Origin: a virus
Strand: one strand, 5' to 3'
IMG/VR virus record: IMGVR_UViG_3300042453_002197
Coordinates: 4,723-68,722 of that record
Length of the DNA stretch: 64,000 nt
The notes beneath the pieces were generated by a model. The model was not told where the DNA came from and did no database searches. It worked only from the letters and a program-made list of their open reading frames with translations. Below are positions 217-36,799 of this stretch, piece after piece (position 1 is the first letter of the stretch; each line of letters begins with the position of its first letter). Position numbers and translations under genes: made by a program.

Positions 217-293
217 TGGTGCCCTAGACAGGATTCGAACCTGCAAAACCTGATATCTCAAACCAGTATGTTTACCACTTTCATCACCAGGGC
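217..293 (-). tRNA. tRNA-Leu(GAG), short variable loop
   Basis: Acceptor GCCCTGG/CTAGGGC, anticodon arm CTGGT-TTGAGAT-ATCAG, T arm GCAGG-TTCGAAT-CCTGT, encoded ACCA. Confidence 0.85.
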
Positions 294-304
294 ATTATTT
301 CGTT

Positions 305-392
305 TGGCGGAAGATCACGGAATCGAACCGTATCCACATTACTGGACCATCTGTTTTCGAGGCAGTGATAATCCCAGATTATTTGATCTTCC
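305..392 (-). tRNA. tRNA-Ser(CGA)
   Basis: Acceptor GGAAGAT/ATCTTCC, loop CT-CGA-AA, long variable arm, TTCGATT T loop, GCCA end; anticodon stem has two mismatches. Confidence 0.8.
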
Positions 393-485
393 TGGCAGAA
401 GGTGTGGGAGTCGAACCCACGTGTCCATTATACGTGAACCATCATCTTTCCAAGATGCGCCGATAGGCCTCTCCGGCAACCTTCT
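393..485 (-). tRNA. tRNA-Ser(GGA)
   Basis: Acceptor AGAAGGT/ACCTTCT, loop TT-GGA-AA, long variable arm, GTGGG-TTCGACT-CCCAC, GCCA end. Confidence 0.88.
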
Positions 486-492
486 AATATTT

Positions 493-568
493 TGGTAGGT
501 CTTGTTGGAGTTGAACCAACGATCTTCACTATGTCACAGTGACGATTTTACCACTAATCTAAAGACCT
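493..568 (-). tRNA. tRNA-Val(GAC)
   Basis: Acceptor AGGTCTT/AAGACCT, anticodon arm TCACT-GTGACAT-AGTGA, GTTGG-TTCAACT-CCAAC, ACCA end. Confidence 0.85.
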
Positions 569-784
569 AAGAATACCTTTTAGTCTAGTCAAATCTTGGG
601 CGGATAGAAACATTTCAAACTTCAGTTCTTCCCGCATAGGTTCAGACTTTACTATTTCTACCGTTTTAAACTTTAGATTATAAATCTTATTATCGTGATT
701 GTCTATTAATGAAGTTAGTTCCGCATAGGCACGATAGTCTTGATTGTCTACTAGCAACGTGCGAGATTGTTCAACTAACTTCAT
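554..784 (-). CDS. hypothetical protein
   Basis: 76-aa ORF, same strand as neighbours; last 15 nt overlap the tRNA-Val 5' end. Confidence 0.65.
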   Translation of the reverse strand: MKLVEQSRTLLVDNQDYRAYAELTSLIDNHDNKIYNLKFKTVEIVKSEPMREELKFEMFLSAQDLTRLKGILRSLD

Positions 785-805
785 TTTATGACTTCACCCA
801 AATAG

Positions 806-991
806 TTAATCTACATCAGAGTCTGAAGACTTTTCACGCTTGCCTGCTGTTTTACGTGCTTGTTCTGCACACAGTTCAGCGTCTATCATAGCACGTTTCC
901 AGTGTGGATAAACTTCACGTGAATAACGCATAGATGCTAGACGCATCTTTAGTGGCTTACTCATTTTATAACTTGATGTTGGTTTTTGCAT
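806..991 (-). CDS. hypothetical protein
   Basis: 61-aa ORF with AAGG RBS-like sequence and an upstream sigma70-like promoter. Confidence 0.65.
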   Translation of the reverse strand: MQKPTSSYKMSKPLKMRLASMRYSREVYPHWKRAMIDAELCAEQARKTAGKREKSSDSDVD

Positions 992-1014: not shown

Positions 1015-1043
1015 AGTTTAATTTGTAACGAGATATTTGTCAA
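1015..1043 (-). promoter_or_regulatory. sigma70-type promoter
   Basis: TTGACA-17 nt-TAAACT. Confidence 0.55.
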
Positions 1044-1050
1044 ATACTTT

Positions 1051-1230
1051 TATTCCAAAACACACGTATTTATGATGTGTTTTGGAATATCCAGACTAGC
1101 TGGATATATCAGAGCTATACTCTGATCTGCTATTTATACTTATGTGTTATCGCCACACTTTCATCCAGCAGTCCGCCCGTTTAGTAGTTTATTTAATGTG
1201 CTCTACTAGGACCTCGTTTCCTGTTAGCAC
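1051..1230 (-). ncRNA. putative structured RNA (several stems, possible pseudoknot)
   Basis: Stems GUCC/GGAC, UAGUAG/CUACUA, GUGU/ACAC, AUCAGAG/CUCUGAU, UAUCCAG/CUGGAUA, UUCCAAAACACA/UGUGUUUUGGAA; 5' GUGCU complementary to loop AGCAC. Confidence 0.5.
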
Positions 1231-1235
1231 CAAGT

Positions 1236-1269
1236 AAAACCCCCGAGACTTTTTAGGTTTCGGGGGTTT
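1236..1269 (-). terminator. intrinsic terminator (probable attenuator hairpin)
   Basis: AAACCCCCGA...TCGGGGGTTT stem followed by a short T run. Confidence 0.7.
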
Positions 1270-1302
1270 GGTTTAAAGAACTTTACAATATTACTGTTTC
1301 AT

Positions 1303-1434
1303 CTACCCCCGAATTATTTTTCCTTTATTCTGGTCGCCACGTAAACTAATAAAATATGTGGGCGCCGGCATCTGTTCGCATAGTCTAGACCATGAGAAGG
1401 CTGATGGTGAAAAATGATTCATGTAGTTTTTCAT
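1303..1434 (-). CDS. putative 43-aa leader (attenuator) peptide
   Basis: MKNYMNHFSPSAFSWSRLCEQMPAPTYFISLRGDQNKGKIIRG*; TAAATA 5 nt before ATG; last codons complementary to the 5' arm of the downstream terminator. Confidence 0.6.
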   Translation of the reverse strand: MKNYMNHFSPSAFSWSRLCEQMPAPTYFISLRGDQNKGKIIRG

Positions 1435-1494
1435 ATAAGTATTTAGTAATTACCTAATAATATGATTATTTATCTCTGTTTTTAATGAAATAAT

Positions 1495-1851
1495 TTAATT
1501 GTGGTAATTCAAATCTGGGTCTATATCTGTTATTTCAAATTCATATGGATAATTTATAGATAACTCTTGCATACTTTGATTTAAAAAACTTATATATTCC
1601 TCAATAGCTTCTTGATTACTCCATAAACGTATGGTAGTATAGTAAGTGTATTTATTTAAATATAAACCAGTTGTTGCGGCTTGATTGACAAGTGGATTAT
1701 ATTGTATAGCATCAGTTTTACCTTCCAATAACATTGCTTCACGTTTATTTTTTACCAAATTAAAAATATTGTTTGAAGTATAGTCAATCAATGATAAGCC
1801 CGTTGCAGGGACATCAGTCCAAGTAATTGTTAATTGTTTCGTCATTGACAT
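1495..1851 (-). CDS. hypothetical protein
   Basis: 118-aa ORF with upstream TAAATA element. Confidence 0.75.
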   Translation of the reverse strand: MSMTKQLTITWTDVPATGLSLIDYTSNNIFNLVKNKREAMLLEGKTDAIQYNPLVNQAATTGLYLNKYTYYTTIRLWSNQEAIEEYISFLNQSMQELSINYPYEFEITDIDPDLNYHN

Positions 1852-1923
1852 TTTATTTTATTCTCTTATATGAGATATTTAGTGTTTCATACTAAATTTA
1901 CGACTCTGATAAGATAATAAATC

Positions 1924-2478
1924 TTAATTTTCAACAAATTTTAGTTGATTAATAATGTTTAGTGTATTCTCTTGAAACGATTTGTACATTATCCATTGCC
2001 AATTATTTTTGTATTTGAGTTCAATTTTTTCACGATACACTGACCAGTCATTAAATAGTGAAGAATTCTTAATAATATATTTTAATATACCACTATTTGA
2101 AGCTTGTCTTGAAACGAAAATAAAATCACAGGATTCTGCAATTCTTTTAGTTTGTAATGTAACTGTTTCATCATTATCCGGTAAACACCAATAATTAGTT
2201 CTATATGTTGGATGTACAAATGTTCGTGAAAAAACTCTAAAAATTTTGTCTCCGAACGGTTCAACACCCATCATTAAAACTAAATTAGCTGGATCTTTAT
2301 CGTACACATATCCGTATTCAAGCATTCTATCTATGCTTTCAATAGTGTAATTTCTACTAAGCTTTTCATTTAAGTTTAATGCATATCGTAGATGATTTAA
2401 AAAATTTTCATCGTAATCCACTTTATCATGATGCTTTACTATTTTATAGTAAAAACCACATTTCAATTTAACTATCAT
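1924..2478 (-). CDS. hypothetical protein, possibly GNAT-like
   Basis: FRVFSRTFVHPTYRT resembles GNAT motif A (V.P.YR). Confidence 0.45.
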   Translation of the reverse strand: MIVKLKCGFYYKIVKHHDKVDYDENFLNHLRYALNLNEKLSRNYTIESIDRMLEYGYVYDKDPANLVLMMGVEPFGDKIFRVFSRTFVHPTYRTNYWCLPDNDETVTLQTKRIAESCDFIFVSRQASNSGILKYIIKNSSLFNDWSVYREKIELKYKNNWQWIMYKSFQENTLNIINQLKFVEN

Positions 2479-2480
2479 AA

Positions 2481-2963
2481 TTAAGATTCTACCGATCCCA
2501 TTAAATGTAATCTTTGTCTATTGCTACAATTAATAAAAGTATGTTCTTTAGTTGTGTCAACCAAATATATCTGTCCCACTGGCAAATGTTCTAAATGACC
2601 ATTTTTAAATAAAAAGTAACATTCTGAATTTGTAATGATTGGTATATGGATTCGTGGTGTTGTATCCGCGTGGATGCTATAACATGACCAAGGTTCAACC
2701 ATCATAAATCTGGTGCGTTTTAAATTGTATTGAATTATTAGATTTTCAAAAAAAGTATTTTTGTAGTTCTCATTCAAATTCACATATTCTAAATCCGTGC
2801 CATCACCTTTTCCTAAACCACTTATATATGGATTTTCATTTGTTTTATATTGCAGACTTGCTTGTTTACACTTACCATAATCAACCCACTTGATATTGTC
2901 TTTAAAAGAATCATACGCAGATAAGAGTTGAGTTACATCAATTGAATTAATAATTTTAATCAT
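2481..2963 (-). CDS. aspartyl/asparaginyl beta-hydroxylase-like Fe/2OG oxygenase
   Basis: HAD...RIHIPIITN...HTFIN...RLHL motifs. Confidence 0.75.
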   Translation of the reverse strand: MIKIINSIDVTQLLSAYDSFKDNIKWVDYGKCKQASLQYKTNENPYISGLGKGDGTDLEYVNLNENYKNTFFENLIIQYNLKRTRFMMVEPWSCYSIHADTTPRIHIPIITNSECYFLFKNGHLEHLPVGQIYLVDTTKEHTFINCSNRQRLHLMGSVES

Positions 2964-3582
2964 AATTTATTTTAAAACGCAGTGTTATTCCTGTTTTTAC
3001 TCCCTTAAATTTTGACGTAGCATGTATACGTCTATTATCAAATAGTATTAAACTACCTATATCAAACGGATAAGCTTTGCCACTTAACCCATAAAGAGTT
3101 TCTTTTGGATAATGATTCAAATGTGTGTAAAGTTCATCGCAAATATTTTCATTTGTTAAATTTCTAACGGGATATTCAAATGGGCAACCTTTTACGCCTA
3201 TATTAGTTGTAAAATACTGTACGGGTAAATGCATGCACCAGGTAACGCTGTCTAAATGCCATTCTTGATCAAATATGATCAAATTTGGTAATGCTTCGGT
3301 ATAAGCTAAAGGTATTACTACATTAATTTCATTTTTCTGAAAAGTTTTGAAATCTGTGTGAGGCAAATAAGGTTCAGAATGTTTATAGAAATTACCTGTG
3401 CAATATGTAATCTTATATTCACAGTAACTTTGTATTAATGGTACAAGTAAATGCAAACATTCACGCGGAGTGAGTTTGTTCATTGTAGTAGTGTCATAAG
3501 TAGTAGAAGAATTATATTCATCTAAGCAAAGTCGTATAATATTTTTGTCTATACAATTGAATTTTTGAATCACCGATGACAT
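2956..3582 (-). CDS. Fe/2OG oxygenase-like protein
   Basis: PHTD and distal FDNRRIHAT facial triad; start moved to the ATG after TAAATA. Confidence 0.6.
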   Translation of the reverse strand: MSSVIQKFNCIDKNIIRLCLDEYNSSTTYDTTTMNKLTPRECLHLLVPLIQSYCEYKITYCTGNFYKHSEPYLPHTDFKTFQKNEINVVIPLAYTEALPNLIIFDQEWHLDSVTWCMHLPVQYFTTNIGVKGCPFEYPVRNLTNENICDELYTHLNHYPKETLYGLSGKAYPFDIGSLILFDNRRIHATSKFKGVKTGITLRFKINYD

Positions 3583-3594
3583 AAATATATTTAT
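3581..3594. promoter_or_regulatory. back-to-back T4-like late promoters
   Basis: Perfect palindrome ATAAATATATTTAT gives TAAATA on both strands at the divergence point. Confidence 0.55.
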
Positions 3595-3613
3595 CAACTA
3601 AAATGTTTAGAAA

Positions 3614-4636
3614 ATGAAATGTGGATGGATTGAAAATAGACTTAGTATAGAAACAGATGGCTATACTAGAGCTTGTTGTTTAGAGACAGATAACGCGGCA
3701 AGAATTAGTTATATAAATTCAGGAATTAATAGTTCTTTTAACAATAAAATTTTACTTCAATTACGAGATGATTTATCAACTGGATTTAATGAAAAAACAA
3801 AGCCATTTTGTAATCGTTGTGCAGAACTAGAATTTAACAAAGAACCAAGTTTAAGAACTACCACATCTTTTTTAAGTGATAAAAGAGAATTAAAGTATTT
3901 ACAATTTAAATTAAGCAATCAATGTCAACTAGCATGTGCTCATTGTGGTAGTGATCGTAGTAGTACATGGGCAAAAATTAATAACGAAAATCCTCACGTA
4001 AAAAAAGCATTTGATATTACTGATTCGTTTTTAAATGAACTTAAAAGCATTTTGCCAACATTATCAGTAATTAAATTTTCAGGCGGTGAACCATTTTTAC
4101 AACCAGAACATTGGAAAATTTTAGAAGCGTTAAAATCGGAAAATAGAAGCAACTGTGAATTGCATTATATAACTAATGGAATAAGTCCTTTCAGACAGGA
4201 ATTATGGGAAGGATGGAAAAACATAAACTGCTCAATAAGTGTTGATGGTTTTGAAAAAAGTTATGAATGGTTTAGACGAGGTAGTAATTGGGATATGTTG
4301 TTGCAGAATATTAACAAACTAAAAAAATATAGTAATGTTTCCATAAATTATTCAGTAACACCATATACTATTTCTGATTATTTAAAAGCTAAAGAATTTT
4401 GGTCCGATAAATATCACTTCAGTGAATTTTCTATCGTATATCCTGATCACTGTAGTATGCTTAAATTTCCCATGAGTTTTATAACTAAACTTAAGAATTT
4501 TGAAAAAATTCCATATACATCGTCATGTGCGACTACTGGAAATATTCATATATTTAGAGAGTGGGCAAAAAAGTCCGATTTGTATTGGAATACGATTGAT
4601 CAGTCAAAAAAACTATTTTGGTGGATGAATGACTAA
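3614..4636 (+). CDS. radical SAM protein with N-terminal SPASM/twitch-like Cys cluster
   Basis: CQLACAHC (CX3CX2C), SGGEP, YITNG, SVDG; N-terminal C...CC...CNRC. Confidence 0.9.
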   Translation: MKCGWIENRLSIETDGYTRACCLETDNAARISYINSGINSSFNNKILLQLRDDLSTGFNEKTKPFCNRCAELEFNKEPSLRTTTSFLSDKRELKYLQFKLSNQCQLACAHCGSDRSSTWAKINNENPHVKKAFDITDSFLNELKSILPTLSVIKFSGGEPFLQPEHWKILEALKSENRSNCELHYITNGISPFRQELWEGWKNINCSISVDGFEKSYEWFRRGSNWDMLLQNINKLKKYSNVSINYSVTPYTISDYLKAKEFWSDKYHFSEFSIVYPDHCSMLKFPMSFITKLKNFEKIPYTSSCATTGNIHIFREWAKKSDLYWNTIDQSKKLFWWMND

Positions 4637-5168
4637 TTTCTATAAAGAATTAAACGATATTGATAATTGGCAAGAATTAACTAATTTTGTTCTTTACGAA
4701 ATACAGCATAAATATGCTGATGTATTTAATCGTATAAACAATCTAAGTTACATAGAACTGCCAGAGGAGTTTTTTGTGGGTTTAAAACCAAAAATAGACA
4801 AAGTTTTTGAAAAATATAATATTCATTGCAAACTTGCCGCAGTATACGTAACGTATGAAGATAAACATGGCGATATTCATTGTGATAATAGACCTGAAAA
4901 TTATCGAATAAATTTGCCCGTTTTAAATTGCCAAAATACTAAAACTCAATTCTATTCTGTTTCAAATTTTAGATGGTATCGTAATTCTCTATATATTGTA
5001 AAATTGCCAGCACACGACGCAGACGTAAAACTTATTGATGAATTTGAGCTTAGCATGCCAACAGTGGTCAGTGTAAATGATTGGCATTGTGTAAAAGTAT
5101 CTAATCAATTGCCTAGAATTTCTTTAACACTTTCTTTTGAAGAAGATTTGCAATTTTTAATAAAATGA
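4629..5168 (+). CDS. cupin/Fe-2OG oxygenase-like protein
   Basis: IHCD...RINLP...WHCV...RISL. Confidence 0.6.
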   Translation: MTNFYKELNDIDNWQELTNFVLYEIQHKYADVFNRINNLSYIELPEEFFVGLKPKIDKVFEKYNIHCKLAAVYVTYEDKHGDIHCDNRPENYRINLPVLNCQNTKTQFYSVSNFRWYRNSLYIVKLPAHDADVKLIDEFELSMPTVVSVNDWHCVKVSNQLPRISLTLSFEEDLQFLIK

Positions 5169-5731
5169 ACTTTTTTTATCTTAACTTGCCACGAATTCCA
5201 TCTAATTTAACAAAACTATGCTTTAAAAATATATCTTTAGCCTCTTCTGATCCTTTTTTAATAGAAATGAACAAAAAAGAAGGTGTAAGTCATAGTATTA
5301 CTTATTTGCCACCAGAAGTAAAAATCTGGCTAATTGAAAACATAATCAAAATATTAGATCCAACTTTCGAACATCCAGAATTAATTAATAACATGTATTT
5401 ACACATAAACAAATACATAGAACATCGTGAAGGGAACGGTGTACATCCAATTCATATAGATTACGGAAGAAAATTTGCTTTCAATTATATACTAACCCTA
5501 GGAGCAAACAATTTACCAATTACCACCTGGTACGAGAATGATAAAACAACTATAATAGAACAACACGCTATAGAACCTAATCGATGGCACTTAATAGCAG
5601 TTAATCCTGTATTTCACGGCGTAAGAGGACAGGAAAAAAATCAATTACGTACCATCATTAGTTTATGTTATGATCCTTTTGATTTGAATAATTTCAATCC
5701 AAAAAAACAATTTGAAAATATTATTATATGA
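5165..5731 (+). CDS. cupin/Fe-2OG oxygenase-like protein
   Basis: IHID...AFNY...FHGV...RTIISL. Confidence 0.6.
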   Translation: MNFFYLNLPRIPSNLTKLCFKNISLASSDPFLIEMNKKEGVSHSITYLPPEVKIWLIENIIKILDPTFEHPELINNMYLHINKYIEHREGNGVHPIHIDYGRKFAFNYILTLGANNLPITTWYENDKTTIIEQHAIEPNRWHLIAVNPVFHGVRGQEKNQLRTIISLCYDPFDLNNFNPKKQFENIII

Positions 5732-6228
5732 GCTATTTTTATGAACTAAACATTAAATGCACCATTAACGAAAAATTATGTGATTTCGTTACACAAAGCC
5801 AAAAATGGCAAGTCAAATCAGCATTTGAATATATTGAAATTCCTAATAATTTAATTCAAATGGATCAAACTATTAAGTATTTCGTAAACGAGTTTAACGC
5901 AGAACCACTGATATTACGTATGTCACCGAACACTTTTTATAGATTTCATATAGATACTTCCAGAACATGTGCAGTAAATATGTTGATATCTGGATCAGAT
6001 AGTAATTGTTACTTTGGACAAGTTTCCGAGAATGAAGAAATCATAAAAAACGTTACGGAATTAAAATACAGTCCAAATCAATATTATCTATTTAATACTA
6101 AAGAAAAGCACGCAGTATTAAACAAAAATAATTTTAGATATTTGCTTAGTTTAGGTATTTATAAATTAGATTATGAAACTGTCTATAACAAATATAAAAA
6201 GGATCATTGCTATGACTATGGACTTTAA
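5728..6228 (+). CDS. cupin/Fe-2OG oxygenase-like protein
   Basis: FHID...AVN...KHAVLN...RYLLSL. Confidence 0.6.
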   Translation: MSYFYELNIKCTINEKLCDFVTQSQKWQVKSAFEYIEIPNNLIQMDQTIKYFVNEFNAEPLILRMSPNTFYRFHIDTSRTCAVNMLISGSDSNCYFGQVSENEEIIKNVTELKYSPNQYYLFNTKEKHAVLNKNNFRYLLSLGIYKLDYETVYNKYKKDHCYDYGL

Positions 6229-7043
6229 ATATTTGTTAGCTTATGATCTTTTAAATCGTAATCTGAATAATTAATCAATAAGTGTTTATCTTTTTCCCAT
6301 TCTGAACGATTAATAATTAAACTCTCCAAATCATTATTAGCGTATTTTGTTTTTAATGACTCATTATGATAATTTTTAATTTCACTTATACCTAAACTTA
6401 ATTTTTCAGCAAGTTGCTCTTCTGATGCATTGTACCATTCGTCTTCATAAATAAAAGTTCTTTTATTTAAAAAATAATCTATATCTAGCTTGTTACCATG
6501 AAGATTAGATAAAAAATTCTTATATGTATTTTTAAACTTATCATAACACTGCAATATGTAAATAAAGTCGTTAAGATGTTCTTTACTATAATAGAATGAA
6601 GTTATTTGTGGTTGTGAATTACTAACATTATAATGAGACAATTTTAATTCGCTGAATAATCCTAAATATGATAAAAATTGATTTATTTTATTTTTGCGTT
6701 CTAAAAATATCAAATCATAATTTTGAATTATAAATTTTTCAATATCATCAGGCAAATCAAATGGATGAACTTTTATCATATTATTTGGATAAGATTTTAT
6801 TAACTCCAATCTTTCCATTTGTATTTTATATTTGTCATCCCACCATTTTCTATAAACTCTGTTGTGAACATTCTTTACAATTTTATTGTTTTTCAAAACG
6901 TAATTTGATTCAATAACACGATCAACACTAAAATATTCTGCTAAATTAGCAACATATCCCCAATTATCTCTGGCTATATTAAATAATTTAGTTGTTAATA
7001 TAGTGGATGCTGTTCGTGGAGTAGATATGACTAATGGCTTCAT
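6225..7043 (-). CDS. sulfotransferase-like protein (Stf0-like)
   Basis: N-terminal STPRTAST 5'-PSB loop; LERKN..QFLS 3'-PB-like; YED. Confidence 0.6.
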   Translation of the reverse strand: MKPLVISTPRTASTILTTKLFNIARDNWGYVANLAEYFSVDRVIESNYVLKNNKIVKNVHNRVYRKWWDDKYKIQMERLELIKSYPNNMIKVHPFDLPDDIEKFIIQNYDLIFLERKNKINQFLSYLGLFSELKLSHYNVSNSQPQITSFYYSKEHLNDFIYILQCYDKFKNTYKNFLSNLHGNKLDIDYFLNKRTFIYEDEWYNASEEQLAEKLSLGISEIKNYHNESLKTKYANNDLESLIINRSEWEKDKHLLINYSDYDLKDHKLTNI

Positions 7044-36242: not shown

Positions 36243-36799
36243 TATATTTGAGTGTCAAAAAAGAATAATTGAAATAATCTACCGTCTTCGGGGGTACTAC
36301 CGAAATAATCATTACTCATATGAAATAAATCACCACGATACAACACTAGTCTATTGTATCTATTTGCAACAGTATCATATTTGTACCATTTTGTAACGTC
36401 AGAAGCATCATACGGCCTGTCGCCCATTTCACCGCTGGTGGTTGCACCATTTTCCTTATACATATAAAGCGAAGTGCCACCACTTAGTGGAGCATTAGGT
36501 GTCAAGTATAAAACTGCTGCCCACTTATTGAAGTGATCAGTATGTATCCAACTACGATCACTGGCATATGTTAGTTGATATGATCCAGTAAATCCGTCTG
36601 TATGAAACCAATTTGTAATTTCTTTTCCGTAATTCCAAATTATGGTTTGAATTGCCTCTTTTAAATCTGGGGTAAGAAAACTTTTCGTTCTTGATCCTGG
36701 GTAATTACCTTTGACATTAAAATCCTGCTTAAGTGCGAATTCTCTTACCATGTCGGGGTTACCCAAAAAATCGTCTACTATAATTAGATTTGTTCTCAT
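36242..36799 (-). CDS. Fe/2OG oxygenase-like protein (DUF6445-like), paralog 1
   Basis: Same motif set as the adjacent gene. Confidence 0.75.
   Translation of the reverse strand: MRTNLIIVDDFLGNPDMVREFALKQDFNVKGNYPGSRTKSFLTPDLKEAIQTIIWNYGKEITNWFHTDGFTGSYQLTYASDRSWIHTDHFNKWAAVLYLTPNAPLSGGTSLYMYKENGATTSGEMGDRPYDASDVTKWYKYDTVANRYNRLVLYRGDLFHMSNDYFGSTPEDGRLFQLFFFDTQI

What the first reader, a model, noticed from the sequence alone, without database searches (positions are those of the whole stretch)
1236..1445. Codon-sampling leader peptide attenuator upstream of a structured RNA and the tRNA cluster
Seen: a 43-codon ORF (1434-1303) uses 33 different codons and 19 amino acids, including GC-rich codons (CCG GCG CCC CGG GGG) in an AT-rich genome. 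Its end contains TTCGGGGGT (1313-1305), complementary to ACCCCCGAA (1267-1259), which is also the 5' arm of a terminator closed by TCGGGGGTTTT (1246-1236). The two pairings are mutually exclusive. Known: trp/his attenuators work this way but use runs of one codon. Inference: a ribosome reaching the stop masks the antiterminator and transcription ends; stalling at almost any codon allows read-through. This would be a general sensor of tRNA loss, for example after host anticodon-nuclease attack, that switches on phage RNA genes. Caveat: other promoter-like elements lie between it and the tRNAs.
Basis: partly seen in the sequence, partly recalled or inferred. Interest (0 to 1): 0.85.

Follow-up and report, generated by a model that had tools for sequence, protein, structure and literature searches.

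The report
Translation-sensing transcription switch in a giant phage
A giant lake-water phage carries a tiny, probably translated test gene whose last codons are wired to a switchable transcription stop in front of an unknown structured RNA and the phage's tRNA genes, which looks like a trp-operon-style attenuator used by a virus, though no experiment yet shows it works.

Summary
The 8-mer of A/C and its complement occur 4 times in 64 kb (0.34 expected), 3 of them within 74 nt.

The only three related lineages I could reach (L004, L005, L006) keep the small ORF open with in-frame indels (43, 43, 46, 44 codons). All use the same start and the same stop inside segment A.

The peptide evolves almost neutrally (dN/dS 0.70-0.94, against 0.21-0.34 for the neighbouring 61-aa gene). 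A, B, C, two RNA hairpins and the start context stay conserved. The start has the phage's own gene-start signature TAAATA-N5-ATG, which implies a T4-type late promoter and a leaderless mRNA.

I read it as a ribosome-mediated attenuator (confidence 0.5). It directly gates a conserved ~180-nt structured RNA. The tRNAs have their own conserved sigma-70 promoter.

The "codon-sampling" idea is not supported. Codon diversity matches composition-matched random open frames, and the codons do not mirror the phage tRNAs.

Earlier AI notes of this scan describe similar leader attenuators before phage tRNA arrays in other genomes. My searches found no published case.

The parts
1467..1474 (-). GATAAATA, an upstream T4-type late-promoter-like motif. 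It overlaps a sigma-70-like TTAAAA-17-TATTAT site at 1485-1457.
   Evidence: The motif [GC]ATAAATA precedes many long genes of the window. It is conserved in L005 and L006 although the upstream genes differ.
1432..1445 (-). TAAATA-N5-ATG, a second late-promoter core placed so that the transcript would start at the A of the ATG (leaderless leader ORF).
   Evidence: Five of 65 ORFs of 100 or more codons have TAAATA 5-6 nt before their ATG, against about 0.1 expected. In the relatives, all 6 occurrences of TAAATA-N5-ATG start either long genes (3) or the leader ORF (3). The T4 late promoter lies at -13 to -6 (PMC1524935, passage read).
1303..1434 (-). Leader ORF of 43 codons plus TAG.
   Evidence: It is open in all 4 sequences with in-frame indels. 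dN/dS is 0.70-0.94.
1375..1398 (-). Hairpin P1 inside the ORF (inner stem 1394-1379).
   Evidence: It appears in the MFE folds. L005 and L006 have a hairpin of different sequence at the same place. Two pairs have changes on both sides. Three window/L004 substitutions fall in it or beside it and do not break it.
1332..1366 (-). GC-rich hairpin P2 inside the ORF, a possible RNA polymerase pause hairpin (inference).
   Evidence: It is conserved in 4 of 4 sequences. One A-U pair is replaced by G-C in L006 (pair 117/137). L005 extends the stem through a 6-nt in-frame insertion.
1305..1313 (-). Segment A (TTCGGGGGT), the 5' strand of the antiterminator. It covers codons ATT CGG GGG and the T of the TAG stop.
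   Evidence: TCGGGGGTAGATGAA is invariant in 4 of 4 sequences although CGG and GGG are rare codons, each below 0.5% of codons.
1291..1302 (-). Mini-ORF ATG AAA CAG TAA directly after the stop (TAG-ATG), with the G5 run of A as a Shine-Dalgarno-like element 3 nt upstream.
   Evidence: It reads MKQ*, MKQII* and MKQI* in the lineages, with synonymous AAA/AAG and CAG/CAA changes. The duplex with a generic anti-Shine-Dalgarno sequence is -9.2 kcal/mol, stronger than that of all 55 long genes. Its function is unknown.
1259..1267 (-). Segment B (ACCCCCGAA). It is shared between the antiterminator (A:B) and the terminator (B:C).
   Evidence: The A-B spacer is 37-39 nt and variable in sequence.
1236..1246 (-). 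Segment C plus U-tract (TCGGGGGTTTT), the 3' strand of the intrinsic terminator. The whole B-loop-C stretch is invariant in the relatives.
   Evidence: The hairpin alone is -17.4 to -18.4 kcal/mol and the tail is TTTTACTT. The simple scan missed it because the loop is 13 nt.
1054..1230 (-). Conserved structured RNA of unknown family with five helices. It is the first thing reached by read-through.
   Evidence: RNAalifold predicts 57 pairs, 7 of them with changes on both sides. No Rfam family matches. There is no conserved promoter between C and its first helix.
1015..1043 (-). Sigma-70-type promoter TTGACA-17-TAAACT for the 61-aa gene and the tRNAs.
   Evidence: Both hexamers are conserved while the spacer diverges in L005 and L006.
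217..991 (-). Downstream genes: 61-aa ORF (991-806), 76-aa ORF (784-554), then tRNA-Val, Ser, Ser and Leu (568-217). Six more tRNAs lie beyond the window on the same contig.
   Evidence: The 60/61-aa ORF followed by tRNAs is conserved in L005 and L006.

Best explanation
The element is a ribosome-mediated (leader-peptide) transcription attenuator of a giant myophage.

A T4-type late promoter (TAAATA-N5-ATG) would start a leaderless transcript at the AUG of a 43-46-codon ORF. The last codons and the stop of that ORF lie in segment A. A can pair with B, 37-39 nt downstream, to form an antiterminator. B can alternatively pair with C to form an intrinsic terminator.

- **Ribosome on the stop codon:** it covers A, so B:C forms and transcription ends at about 1236.
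- **Ribosome absent, late or stalled upstream of about codon 36:** A is free and pairs with B as soon as B emerges. The polymerase then reads on into a conserved ~180-nt structured RNA, and adds to transcription of the 61-aa gene and the tRNAs.

The output is therefore high when translation is poor.

**Shown in silico:** the parts, their conservation, the open frame and the alternative folds.

**Inferred:** that the ORF is translated, that B:C terminates, that A:B prevents termination, and what the physiological signal is.
For: 1. **The three-way repeat is not chance.** There are 4 copies of the 8-mer or its complement in 64 kb against 0.34 expected, and 3 of them lie within 74 nt. This is the only one of 8 terminator-like hairpins with an upstream copy of its 3' arm.

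2. **The ORF is kept.** Frame +0 has 0 stops in 43/43/46/44 codons, while each of the other 5 frames has 1-6 stops in every sequence. The lengths are 132, 132, 141 and 135 nt, so all indels are in frame. In a simulation that redraws the changed positions, the frame stays open in 9.0% (L005) and 5.3% (L006) of trials. Multiplied by 1/9 for keeping the frame, this gives roughly 5e-4.

3. **The peptide itself is not selected.** dN/dS is 0.70-0.94 against 0.21-0.34 for the neighbouring 61-aa ORF. dS is lower in the leader (0.38-0.59 against 0.76-1.14), which shows constraint at the RNA level.

4. **A is conserved as nucleotides.** TCGGGGGTAGATGAA is invariant even though it uses two rare codons.

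5. **The energies are balanced.** A:B is -15.4 to -19.2 kcal/mol and B:C is -17.4 to -18.4 kcal/mol. A:B is in the MFE of the nascent transcript before C exists in 4 of 4 sequences. B:C forms when 30 nt around the stop are masked in 4 of 4.

6. **The start is a genuine gene start of this phage.** TAAATA-N5-ATG is the phage's own gene-start signature and is conserved in all lineages. With the T4 late promoter at -13 to -6, the mRNA would be leaderless.

7. **The module travels as a unit.** It stays together at the head of the tRNA region while the upstream genes differ in all three lineages.

8. **There is something to regulate.** No conserved promoter lies between C and the structured RNA, so that RNA depends on read-through.
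Against: - A, B, C and the 13-nt loop are invariant, so not one compensatory change supports either pairing. Invariance of the loop suggests some other constraint, such as a bound protein.
- Only three independent lineages exist in the collections I could reach. L005 and L006 were first found by an exact match to the terminator, though four independent anchors later found the same two contigs and no others.
- At equilibrium the terminator is favoured over A:B by 1.3-6.0 kcal/mol in the full leader, so antitermination would have to be kinetic.
- The U-tract is short, at 4-5 U.
- There is no run of regulatory codons, and the codons do not match the tRNAs.
- Gene callers never called this ORF, although they called its four neighbours.
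- There is no Shine-Dalgarno sequence. That is also true of about half of the 55 long genes.
- No Rfam leader family matches. His_leader scores 23.6 bits against a threshold of 49, with a similar hit on the other strand.
Confidence: 0.5

Rival explanations
1. An ordinary small gene with its own terminator. The 43-46-aa product would be a functional, fast-evolving phage peptide, for example an anti-defence peptide or a precursor peptide for the neighbouring radical-SAM/oxygenase island. On this reading, segment A is conserved for another reason, such as a Shine-Dalgarno element for the following mini-ORF or a 3'-end stabilising structure.
For: The ORF is conserved and has a genuine gene-start signature. 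A few residues recur: MKN, AP.YF and a final RG. A radical SAM enzyme lies within 2-3.5 kb upstream in the window and in L005. The G5 run is a strong Shine-Dalgarno-like element before the conserved ATG AAA CA..
Against: dN/dS of 0.70-0.94 shows almost no selection on the protein, while synonymous sites are constrained. Window and L004, 98% identical, already differ by Arg to Ile and Leu to Pro. The final Arg-Gly is kept with two rare codons rather than common synonyms. The radical SAM enzymes differ (340 aa against a 494-aa B12-binding form), lie on the other strand, and are absent next to the module in L006. No homologous called protein exists among 5.8 billion clusters. This reading leaves the exact A/B/C geometry unexplained.
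Confidence: 0.2
2. An RNA-only switch. The ~130-nt region would be a structured leader (helices P0, P1 and P2 around a junction) that binds a ligand, protein or RNA and sets A free or not, as in a riboswitch expression platform. The open frame would be incidental.
For: P1 is replaced by hairpins of different sequence in each lineage. P2 has a compensatory pair and a conserved 17-nt loop. All 4 window/L004 substitutions in the ORF are compatible with the structure, while 3 of them change the amino acid. Synonymous sites are constrained. Gene callers ignore the ORF.
Against: The frame stays open in three lineages, and every indel is a multiple of three, with a rough P of 5e-4. The ATG sits exactly where this phage's long genes start relative to TAAATA. 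No Rfam family matches. The consensus fold has a covariation term of +0.38 kcal/mol, so there is no net covariation support.
Confidence: 0.15
3. A plain terminator at the end of a small late transcript. The structured RNA would be made or processed independently, and segment A would be a relic of a duplicated terminator arm, or the three 8-9-mers would be DNA sites for a protein.
For: The hairpin plus T-tract looks like the other terminators of the phage. B-loop-C is invariant, including the loop, which a DNA- or RNA-binding protein could explain.
Against: A relic would not stay invariant in lineages that are only 77-78% identical overall. No conserved promoter precedes the structured RNA. A and B are nearly isoenergetic with B and C, and the spacer length is kept at 37-39 nt while its sequence drifts.
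Confidence: 0.1

Closest known systems
Leader-peptide attenuators of enterobacterial amino-acid operons (trp, his, leu, thr, pheA, ilv). General knowledge, plus the abstracts of PMC1183508 and PMC3082878 as shown in the listing.
   Same: A short ORF lies in the 5' leader, followed by an intrinsic terminator. An alternative helix uses the terminator's 5' arm. The position of the ribosome relative to the stop codon decides which helix forms.
   Different: There is no run of regulatory codons and no amino-acid biosynthesis genes. The element has three segments (A, B, C), with the stop codon inside the antiterminator strand, instead of the four-segment 1:2/2:3/3:4 scheme. An untranslated leader is therefore predicted to read through rather than to terminate. 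The mRNA is leaderless and late-promoter driven, the element is in a virus, and the regulated product is a non-coding RNA. It is not a sequence member of any Rfam leader family.
Ribosome-mediated attenuators that sense impaired translation in general, e.g. Bacillus subtilis vmlR (PMC9226507, abstract read).
   Same: A uORF, an antiterminator and an intrinsic terminator are present. Stalling of the ribosome in the uORF allows read-through. Induction is by compromised protein synthesis rather than by lack of one amino acid.
   Different: vmlR uses an anti-antiterminator, NusG-dependent pausing and a specific antibiotic-dependent stall site, and it controls a resistance protein. Here no stall site is identifiable, and the output is an RNA of unknown function in a phage.
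Inducible supernumerary tRNA array of Anabaena sp. PCC 7120 (PMC8421152, abstract read; PMC10272220, searched for leader and attenuation terms, none found).
   Same: Accessory tRNA genes are switched on when the translation machinery is impaired. This is the physiological logic proposed here.
   Different: According to the title and abstract listed, control there is by a transcriptional repressor (TrcR), not by a leader ORF. It is a bacterial megaplasmid, not a phage. Here the tRNAs also have their own promoter.
Earlier AI notes of this scan on leader-peptide attenuators in front of phage tRNA arrays (e1-5618024, e1-4038560 and others).
   Same: A small, sometimes leaderless, ORF plus a terminator/antiterminator lies in a large phage upstream of tRNA genes. 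One note also describes a near-copy of the terminator's 3' arm inside the ORF.
   Different: Those notes report leader codons that mirror the downstream tRNAs. Here that was tested and not found, and the immediate target is a structured RNA. The notes are unchecked AI notes, not evidence.

Membership tests
Leader-peptide (ribosome-mediated) transcription attenuators | A short ORF in the 5' leader that is translated | tested here: inconclusive
   The ORF is conserved in 4 of 4 sequences with in-frame indels and has a genuine gene-start context. Translation itself is not testable: no RNA runs are listed.
Leader-peptide (ribosome-mediated) transcription attenuators | An intrinsic terminator between the leader ORF and the regulated gene | tested here: met
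   There is a 10-bp GC-rich stem at -17.4 to -18.4 kcal/mol with tail TTTTACTT. This is prediction only; termination activity was not measured.
Leader-peptide (ribosome-mediated) transcription attenuators | An antiterminator helix mutually exclusive with the terminator | tested here: met
   A:B has 8-9 bp at -15.4 to -19.2 kcal/mol and uses the terminator's 5' arm. It is in the MFE of the nascent RNA in 4 of 4 sequences. No covariation is possible because the segments are invariant.
Leader-peptide (ribosome-mediated) transcription attenuators | A ribosome at the stop codon occludes the strand needed for antitermination | tested here: met
   The stop codon's first base is the last base of A in all 4 sequences. 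Masking 30 nt around the stop gives B:C in 4 of 4. This is a geometric inference.
Leader-peptide (ribosome-mediated) transcription attenuators | Regulatory codons (runs, or enrichment of codons tied to the regulated product) | tested here: not met
   There is no codon run. Eleven of 43 codons are read by the contig's 10 tRNAs against a background of 0.278, P = 0.68; L005 gives P = 0.12 and L006 P = 0.15. Diversity is not above composition-matched shuffles.
Rfam leader families (His_leader RF00514 and the other curated leaders) | A score at or above the family's gathering threshold | tested here: not met
   The best score is 23.6-24.1 bits against a threshold of 49, on both strands of L076 only, E about 2. 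Nothing matched in the window at E up to 1.
Translation-stress-sensing uORF attenuators (vmlR type) | Read-through induced by ribosome stalling on the uORF | not testable with these tools
   This needs reporter or in vitro coupled transcription-translation assays.
T4-type late promoter giving a leaderless mRNA | TATAAATA-like motif at -13 to -6, so that +1 falls on the A of the ATG | tested here: met
   TAAATA-N5-ATG is present in the window, L005 and L006. The geometry comes from PMC1524935. No transcription start site data exist, and a gp55-like sigma factor was not sought (the contig is about 20% of the genome).

The most novel reading that the evidence does not exclude
The leader is a general gauge of translation capacity with no preferred codon. 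Any slowing of ribosomes in the first ~36 codons lets a late, leaderless transcript run through the terminator. Such slowing could come from tRNA cleavage by host anticodon nucleases, ribosome-targeting defences or starvation. Read-through would switch on a new class of structured phage RNA placed at the head of the tRNA region and would boost the tRNA genes behind it. That would make it a viral counter-measure triggered by translation failure itself.
Probability: 0.15. Interest if true: 0.85.

Novelty: new variant of a known kind. Interest (0 to 1): 0.62.

Why it matters
Leader-peptide attenuation is a textbook bacterial device for amino-acid operons. My four literature searches found no account of a phage using it, or of it gating a non-coding RNA or a tRNA region.

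If real, it would show that giant phages monitor the host's translation machinery in cis and adjust an RNA-based response during late infection. It would also give a functional handle on an unknown, conserved structured RNA, because its inducing condition would be known.

The peptide evolves neutrally while the frame and the RNA are kept. That pattern offers a clean comparative signature for finding more such switches in viral metagenomes.

The side observation may matter too. Several late genes, the large terminase among them, appear to be expressed from leaderless mRNAs (TAAATA-N5-ATG), which is useful for annotating this poorly sampled phage clade.

Tried and rejected
**Relatives**
- Cultured phages hold nothing similar. 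This was checked by blastn of 3 kb and of the 261-nt core, and by tblastn with the 118-aa and 61-aa neighbours.
- The large terminase is only 57% identical to that of Pseudomonas phage PA5oct.
- The 118-aa neighbour found no IMG/VR relative.
- The single metagenome scan gave one 98% identical contig, L004.
- The A 15-mer gave 20 stretches, 18 of them unrelated.
- The gapped G5/C5 pattern gave 45 stretches, 43 of them from unrelated contigs with GC 0.48-0.74.
- Scans with the structured-RNA patterns, the 61-aa protein and the 527-aa protein returned only the L005 and L006 contigs, plus one near-identical fragment.
- The one genome-contig scan hit a GC-rich coding region of a MAG by chance.
- There is one copy of the module per record.

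**Expression.** No RNA holder is listed among the 24 sequencing runs, so nothing can be said about expression.

**Strain variation.** Laying contigs of 4 lake-water DNA runs showed only 3 variant sites in 541 nt, none in the ORF or in A, B or C. It also showed short contigs of more distant relatives that I could not fetch.

**Ideas rejected**
- Codon sampling as design.
- Leader codons mirroring the tRNAs.
- A fourth upstream segment pairing with A, suggested by RNAalifold. It is G-U rich and not kept in L005, so I do not rely on it.
- The lack of a Shine-Dalgarno sequence as an argument against translation: 49% of 55 long genes are as weak or weaker.
- tmRNA, tRNA-like or any known RNA family for the region.
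- The other occurrence of the 8-mer at 36288, which lies inside a coding gene.
- A RiPP-precursor reading: there is no conserved enzyme partner.

**Limits.** Supplementary files of papers were not consulted.
Full report
**What the window is.** The window is 64 kb of a 68.7-kb IMG/VR virus record, estimated about 20% complete. It comes from lake-water metagenomes: 20 of 24 listed runs hold the stretch, and none is an RNA run.
- It encodes a T4-type large terminase (Pfam) that is 57% identical to that of Pseudomonas phage PA5oct, and a 1104-aa tail sheath. It is therefore a fragment of a giant myophage, with 35% G+C.
- Almost all genes near the finding are on the minus strand.
- Four tRNA genes lie at 568-217. 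Six more lie further downstream on the contig, outside the window.

**The observation.** On the minus strand the ORF 1434-1303 has 43 sense codons, 33 of them distinct, and 19 kinds of amino acid.
- A = TTCGGGGGT (1313-1305). It overlaps the stop TAG (1305-1303) and is the exact complement of B.
- B = ACCCCCGAA (1267-1259).
- C = TCGGGGGTTTT (1246-1236). It closes a hairpin with B.
- The 8-mer and its complement occur 4 times in the window against 0.34 expected. None of 100 shuffles reaches 4, and three copies lie within 74 nt. The fourth copy is inside a coding gene.
- Among 8 strand-specific terminator-like hairpins (5 loci), only this one has an upstream copy of its 3' arm.

The three-way arrangement is therefore a real feature.

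**Relatives.** Cultured phages have nothing similar. I obtained three related sequences:
- L004, a metagenome contig, 98% identical;
- L005 and L006, two IMG/VR contigs, 78% and 77% identical over the module.

L005 and L006 were first found through an exact match to the terminator, which biases B and C. Four independent anchors later returned the same two contigs and no further relative. The anchors were the A block, the structured RNA, the 61-aa protein and a 527-aa protein. The invariance of B-loop-C is therefore not just ascertainment.

The genes upstream of the module differ in each lineage:
- in the window, a 118-aa gene and a radical-SAM/oxygenase island;
- in L005, an Fe-S assembly gene, two desaturases and a B12-radical SAM enzyme;
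- in L006, divergent tail-fibre-like genes.

The order downstream is kept in all of them: small ORF, A/B/C, structured RNA, sigma-70 promoter, 60/61-aa ORF, tRNAs.

**The ORF is kept but the peptide is not.**
- All four sequences have an open frame from the same ATG to the same TAG: 132, 132, 141 and 135 nt.
- Frame +0 has no stop in any sequence. Each of the other five frames has 1-6 stops.
- Composition-matched shuffles are open only 6-7% of the time.
- Redrawing just the positions that differ from the window keeps the frame open in 9.0% (L005) and 5.3% (L006) of 20,000 trials each. With 1/3 per lineage for keeping the frame across indels, this gives roughly 5e-4. That is a rough figure, since L005 and L006 are treated as independent.
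- dN/dS is 0.70-0.94 for the ORF, against 0.21-0.34 for the adjacent 61-aa ORF.
- dS is lower in the leader (0.38-0.59 against 0.76-1.14).
- Window and L004 differ at 4 ORF positions, 3 of them non-synonymous (Ser to Thr, Arg to Ile, Leu to Pro). All 4 are compatible with the predicted hairpins: two are unpaired, one turns G-U into G-C, and one turns G-C into G-U.
- P1 is a hairpin of different sequence in each lineage. P2 carries an A-U to G-C compensatory pair.

This is the pattern expected when translation and RNA shape matter but the product does not.

**The start.** TAAATA lies exactly 5 nt before the ATG in all lineages.
- In the window, 5 of 65 ORFs of at least 100 codons have TAAATA 5-6 nt before their ATG, against about 0.1 expected. 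They include the large terminase.
- In the relatives, all 6 TAAATA-N5-ATG occurrences start either long genes (3) or the leader ORF (3).
- The T4 late promoter TATAAATA occupies -13 to -6 (PMC1524935, passage read), so transcription would start at the A of the ATG.

The leader ORF thus looks like a late, leaderless mRNA. That also removes the objection that it has no Shine-Dalgarno sequence, and about half of the 55 long genes have none either.

**The switch.**
- Alone, A:B is worth -15.4 to -19.2 kcal/mol and B:C -17.4 to -18.4 kcal/mol.
- A transcript that ends after B folds A:B in 4 of 4 sequences. The full leader prefers B:C by 1.3-6.0 kcal/mol.
- With 30 nt masked around the stop codon, B:C forms in 4 of 4. 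With a ribosome placed at codon 20 and C not yet made, A:B forms in 4 of 4.
- The spacer between A and B keeps its length (37-39 nt) while its sequence drifts.
- TCGGGGGTAGATGAA is invariant although CGG and GGG are rare codons.

The antiterminator would have to act kinetically, as is usual for attenuators. The predicted default without translation is read-through.

**What is controlled.** Directly after the U-tract starts a ~180-nt RNA (1230-1054) with five helices. RNAalifold predicts 57 pairs, 7 of them with changes on both sides. No Rfam family matches it. No conserved promoter precedes it, so it should depend on read-through. A conserved TTGACA-17-TAAACT promoter (1043-1015) follows it, then the 61-aa gene and the tRNAs. 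The attenuator therefore gates the structured RNA first and can only add to tRNA transcription.

**What is not supported.**
- The high codon diversity is unusual for real genes (1 of 340 slices). It is ordinary for a random open frame of this composition (P = 0.15, 0.46, 0.036, 0.30). It follows from the GC-rich stems in an AT-rich genome.
- The leader codons do not mirror the phage tRNAs, unlike the cases described in earlier notes of this scan.
- Nothing bears on anticodon nucleases.

**Weaknesses.**
- There are only three lineages.
- A, B and C show no covariation.
- The hairpin loop is invariant, which is unexplained.
- The U-tract is short.
- There are no expression data.
- No gene caller called the ORF.

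**Comparison and verdict.**
- The element works like a leader-peptide attenuator. It meets four of the five structural criteria I could test.
- It fails the regulatory-codon criterion and is not a sequence member of any Rfam leader family.
- The nearest functional analogue is the class of uORF attenuators that respond to impaired translation, such as vmlR (PMC9226507, abstract).
- The nearest physiological analogue is the translation-stress-induced tRNA array of Anabaena (PMC8421152, abstract).
- Four literature searches found no phage case.
- I give the attenuator reading a confidence of 0.5.
- I class it as a new variant of a known kind, and score interest at 0.62.

Noticed in passing
window minus strand: 36810, 24584, 16188, 14616, 3593 (motif starts); also L072:167, L072:9996, L071:1707: TAAATA lies 5-6 nt before the ATG of five long genes, including the large terminase. 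This implies T4-type late promoters that give leaderless mRNAs for late genes of this phage clade. The longer motif [GC]ATAAATA also sits 19-28 nt before the tail sheath and other genes.
   Followed up: partly
window 1054-1230 (minus): A conserved ~180-nt structured RNA of no known family. It has five helices, and 7 of 57 predicted pairs have changes on both sides. The stretch GGGCGGAC is invariant and unpaired.
   Followed up: partly
window 1291-1302 (minus): A mini-ORF follows the leader's stop directly (TAG-ATG). It reads MKQ*, MKQII* and MKQI* in the lineages, with synonymous changes in the Lys and Gln codons, and the G5 run sits upstream as a strong Shine-Dalgarno-like element. It could prolong ribosome occupancy of A.
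   Followed up: partly
window 1236-1268 (minus): The whole terminator hairpin, including its 13-nt loop, is invariant in lineages that are only 77-78% identical overall. This is more constraint than a plain terminator needs, and I have no explanation for it.
   Followed up: no
window 1495-7043 versus L006:1039-3147: The radical-SAM/oxygenase island of the window is absent in L006. There, only two tail-fibre-like genes separate the module from the conserved 525/527-aa gene. L005 has yet another set: a B12-radical SAM enzyme, two fatty-acid desaturases and an IscA-like protein. This spot is a hot spot for cargo genes.
   Followed up: partly
runs X15 and X19, over window 1131-1183 and 1236-1274: Short metagenome contigs match only the core of the structured RNA (4-6 differences) or only the terminator hairpin (3 differences in 39 nt), with unlike flanks. 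More distant relatives of both elements therefore exist in the same lakes.
   Followed up: no
L005:10783-10869: ARAGORN reports a tRNA of undetermined identity with a two-base anticodon call (ag) in the relative's tRNA region.
   Followed up: no
window 305-392 (minus): tRNA-Ser(CGA) scores 39.3 bits on the Rfam tRNA-Sec model, below the threshold of 47. The anticodon is CGA, and the likely cause is the long variable arm rather than a selenocysteine tRNA.
   Followed up: no
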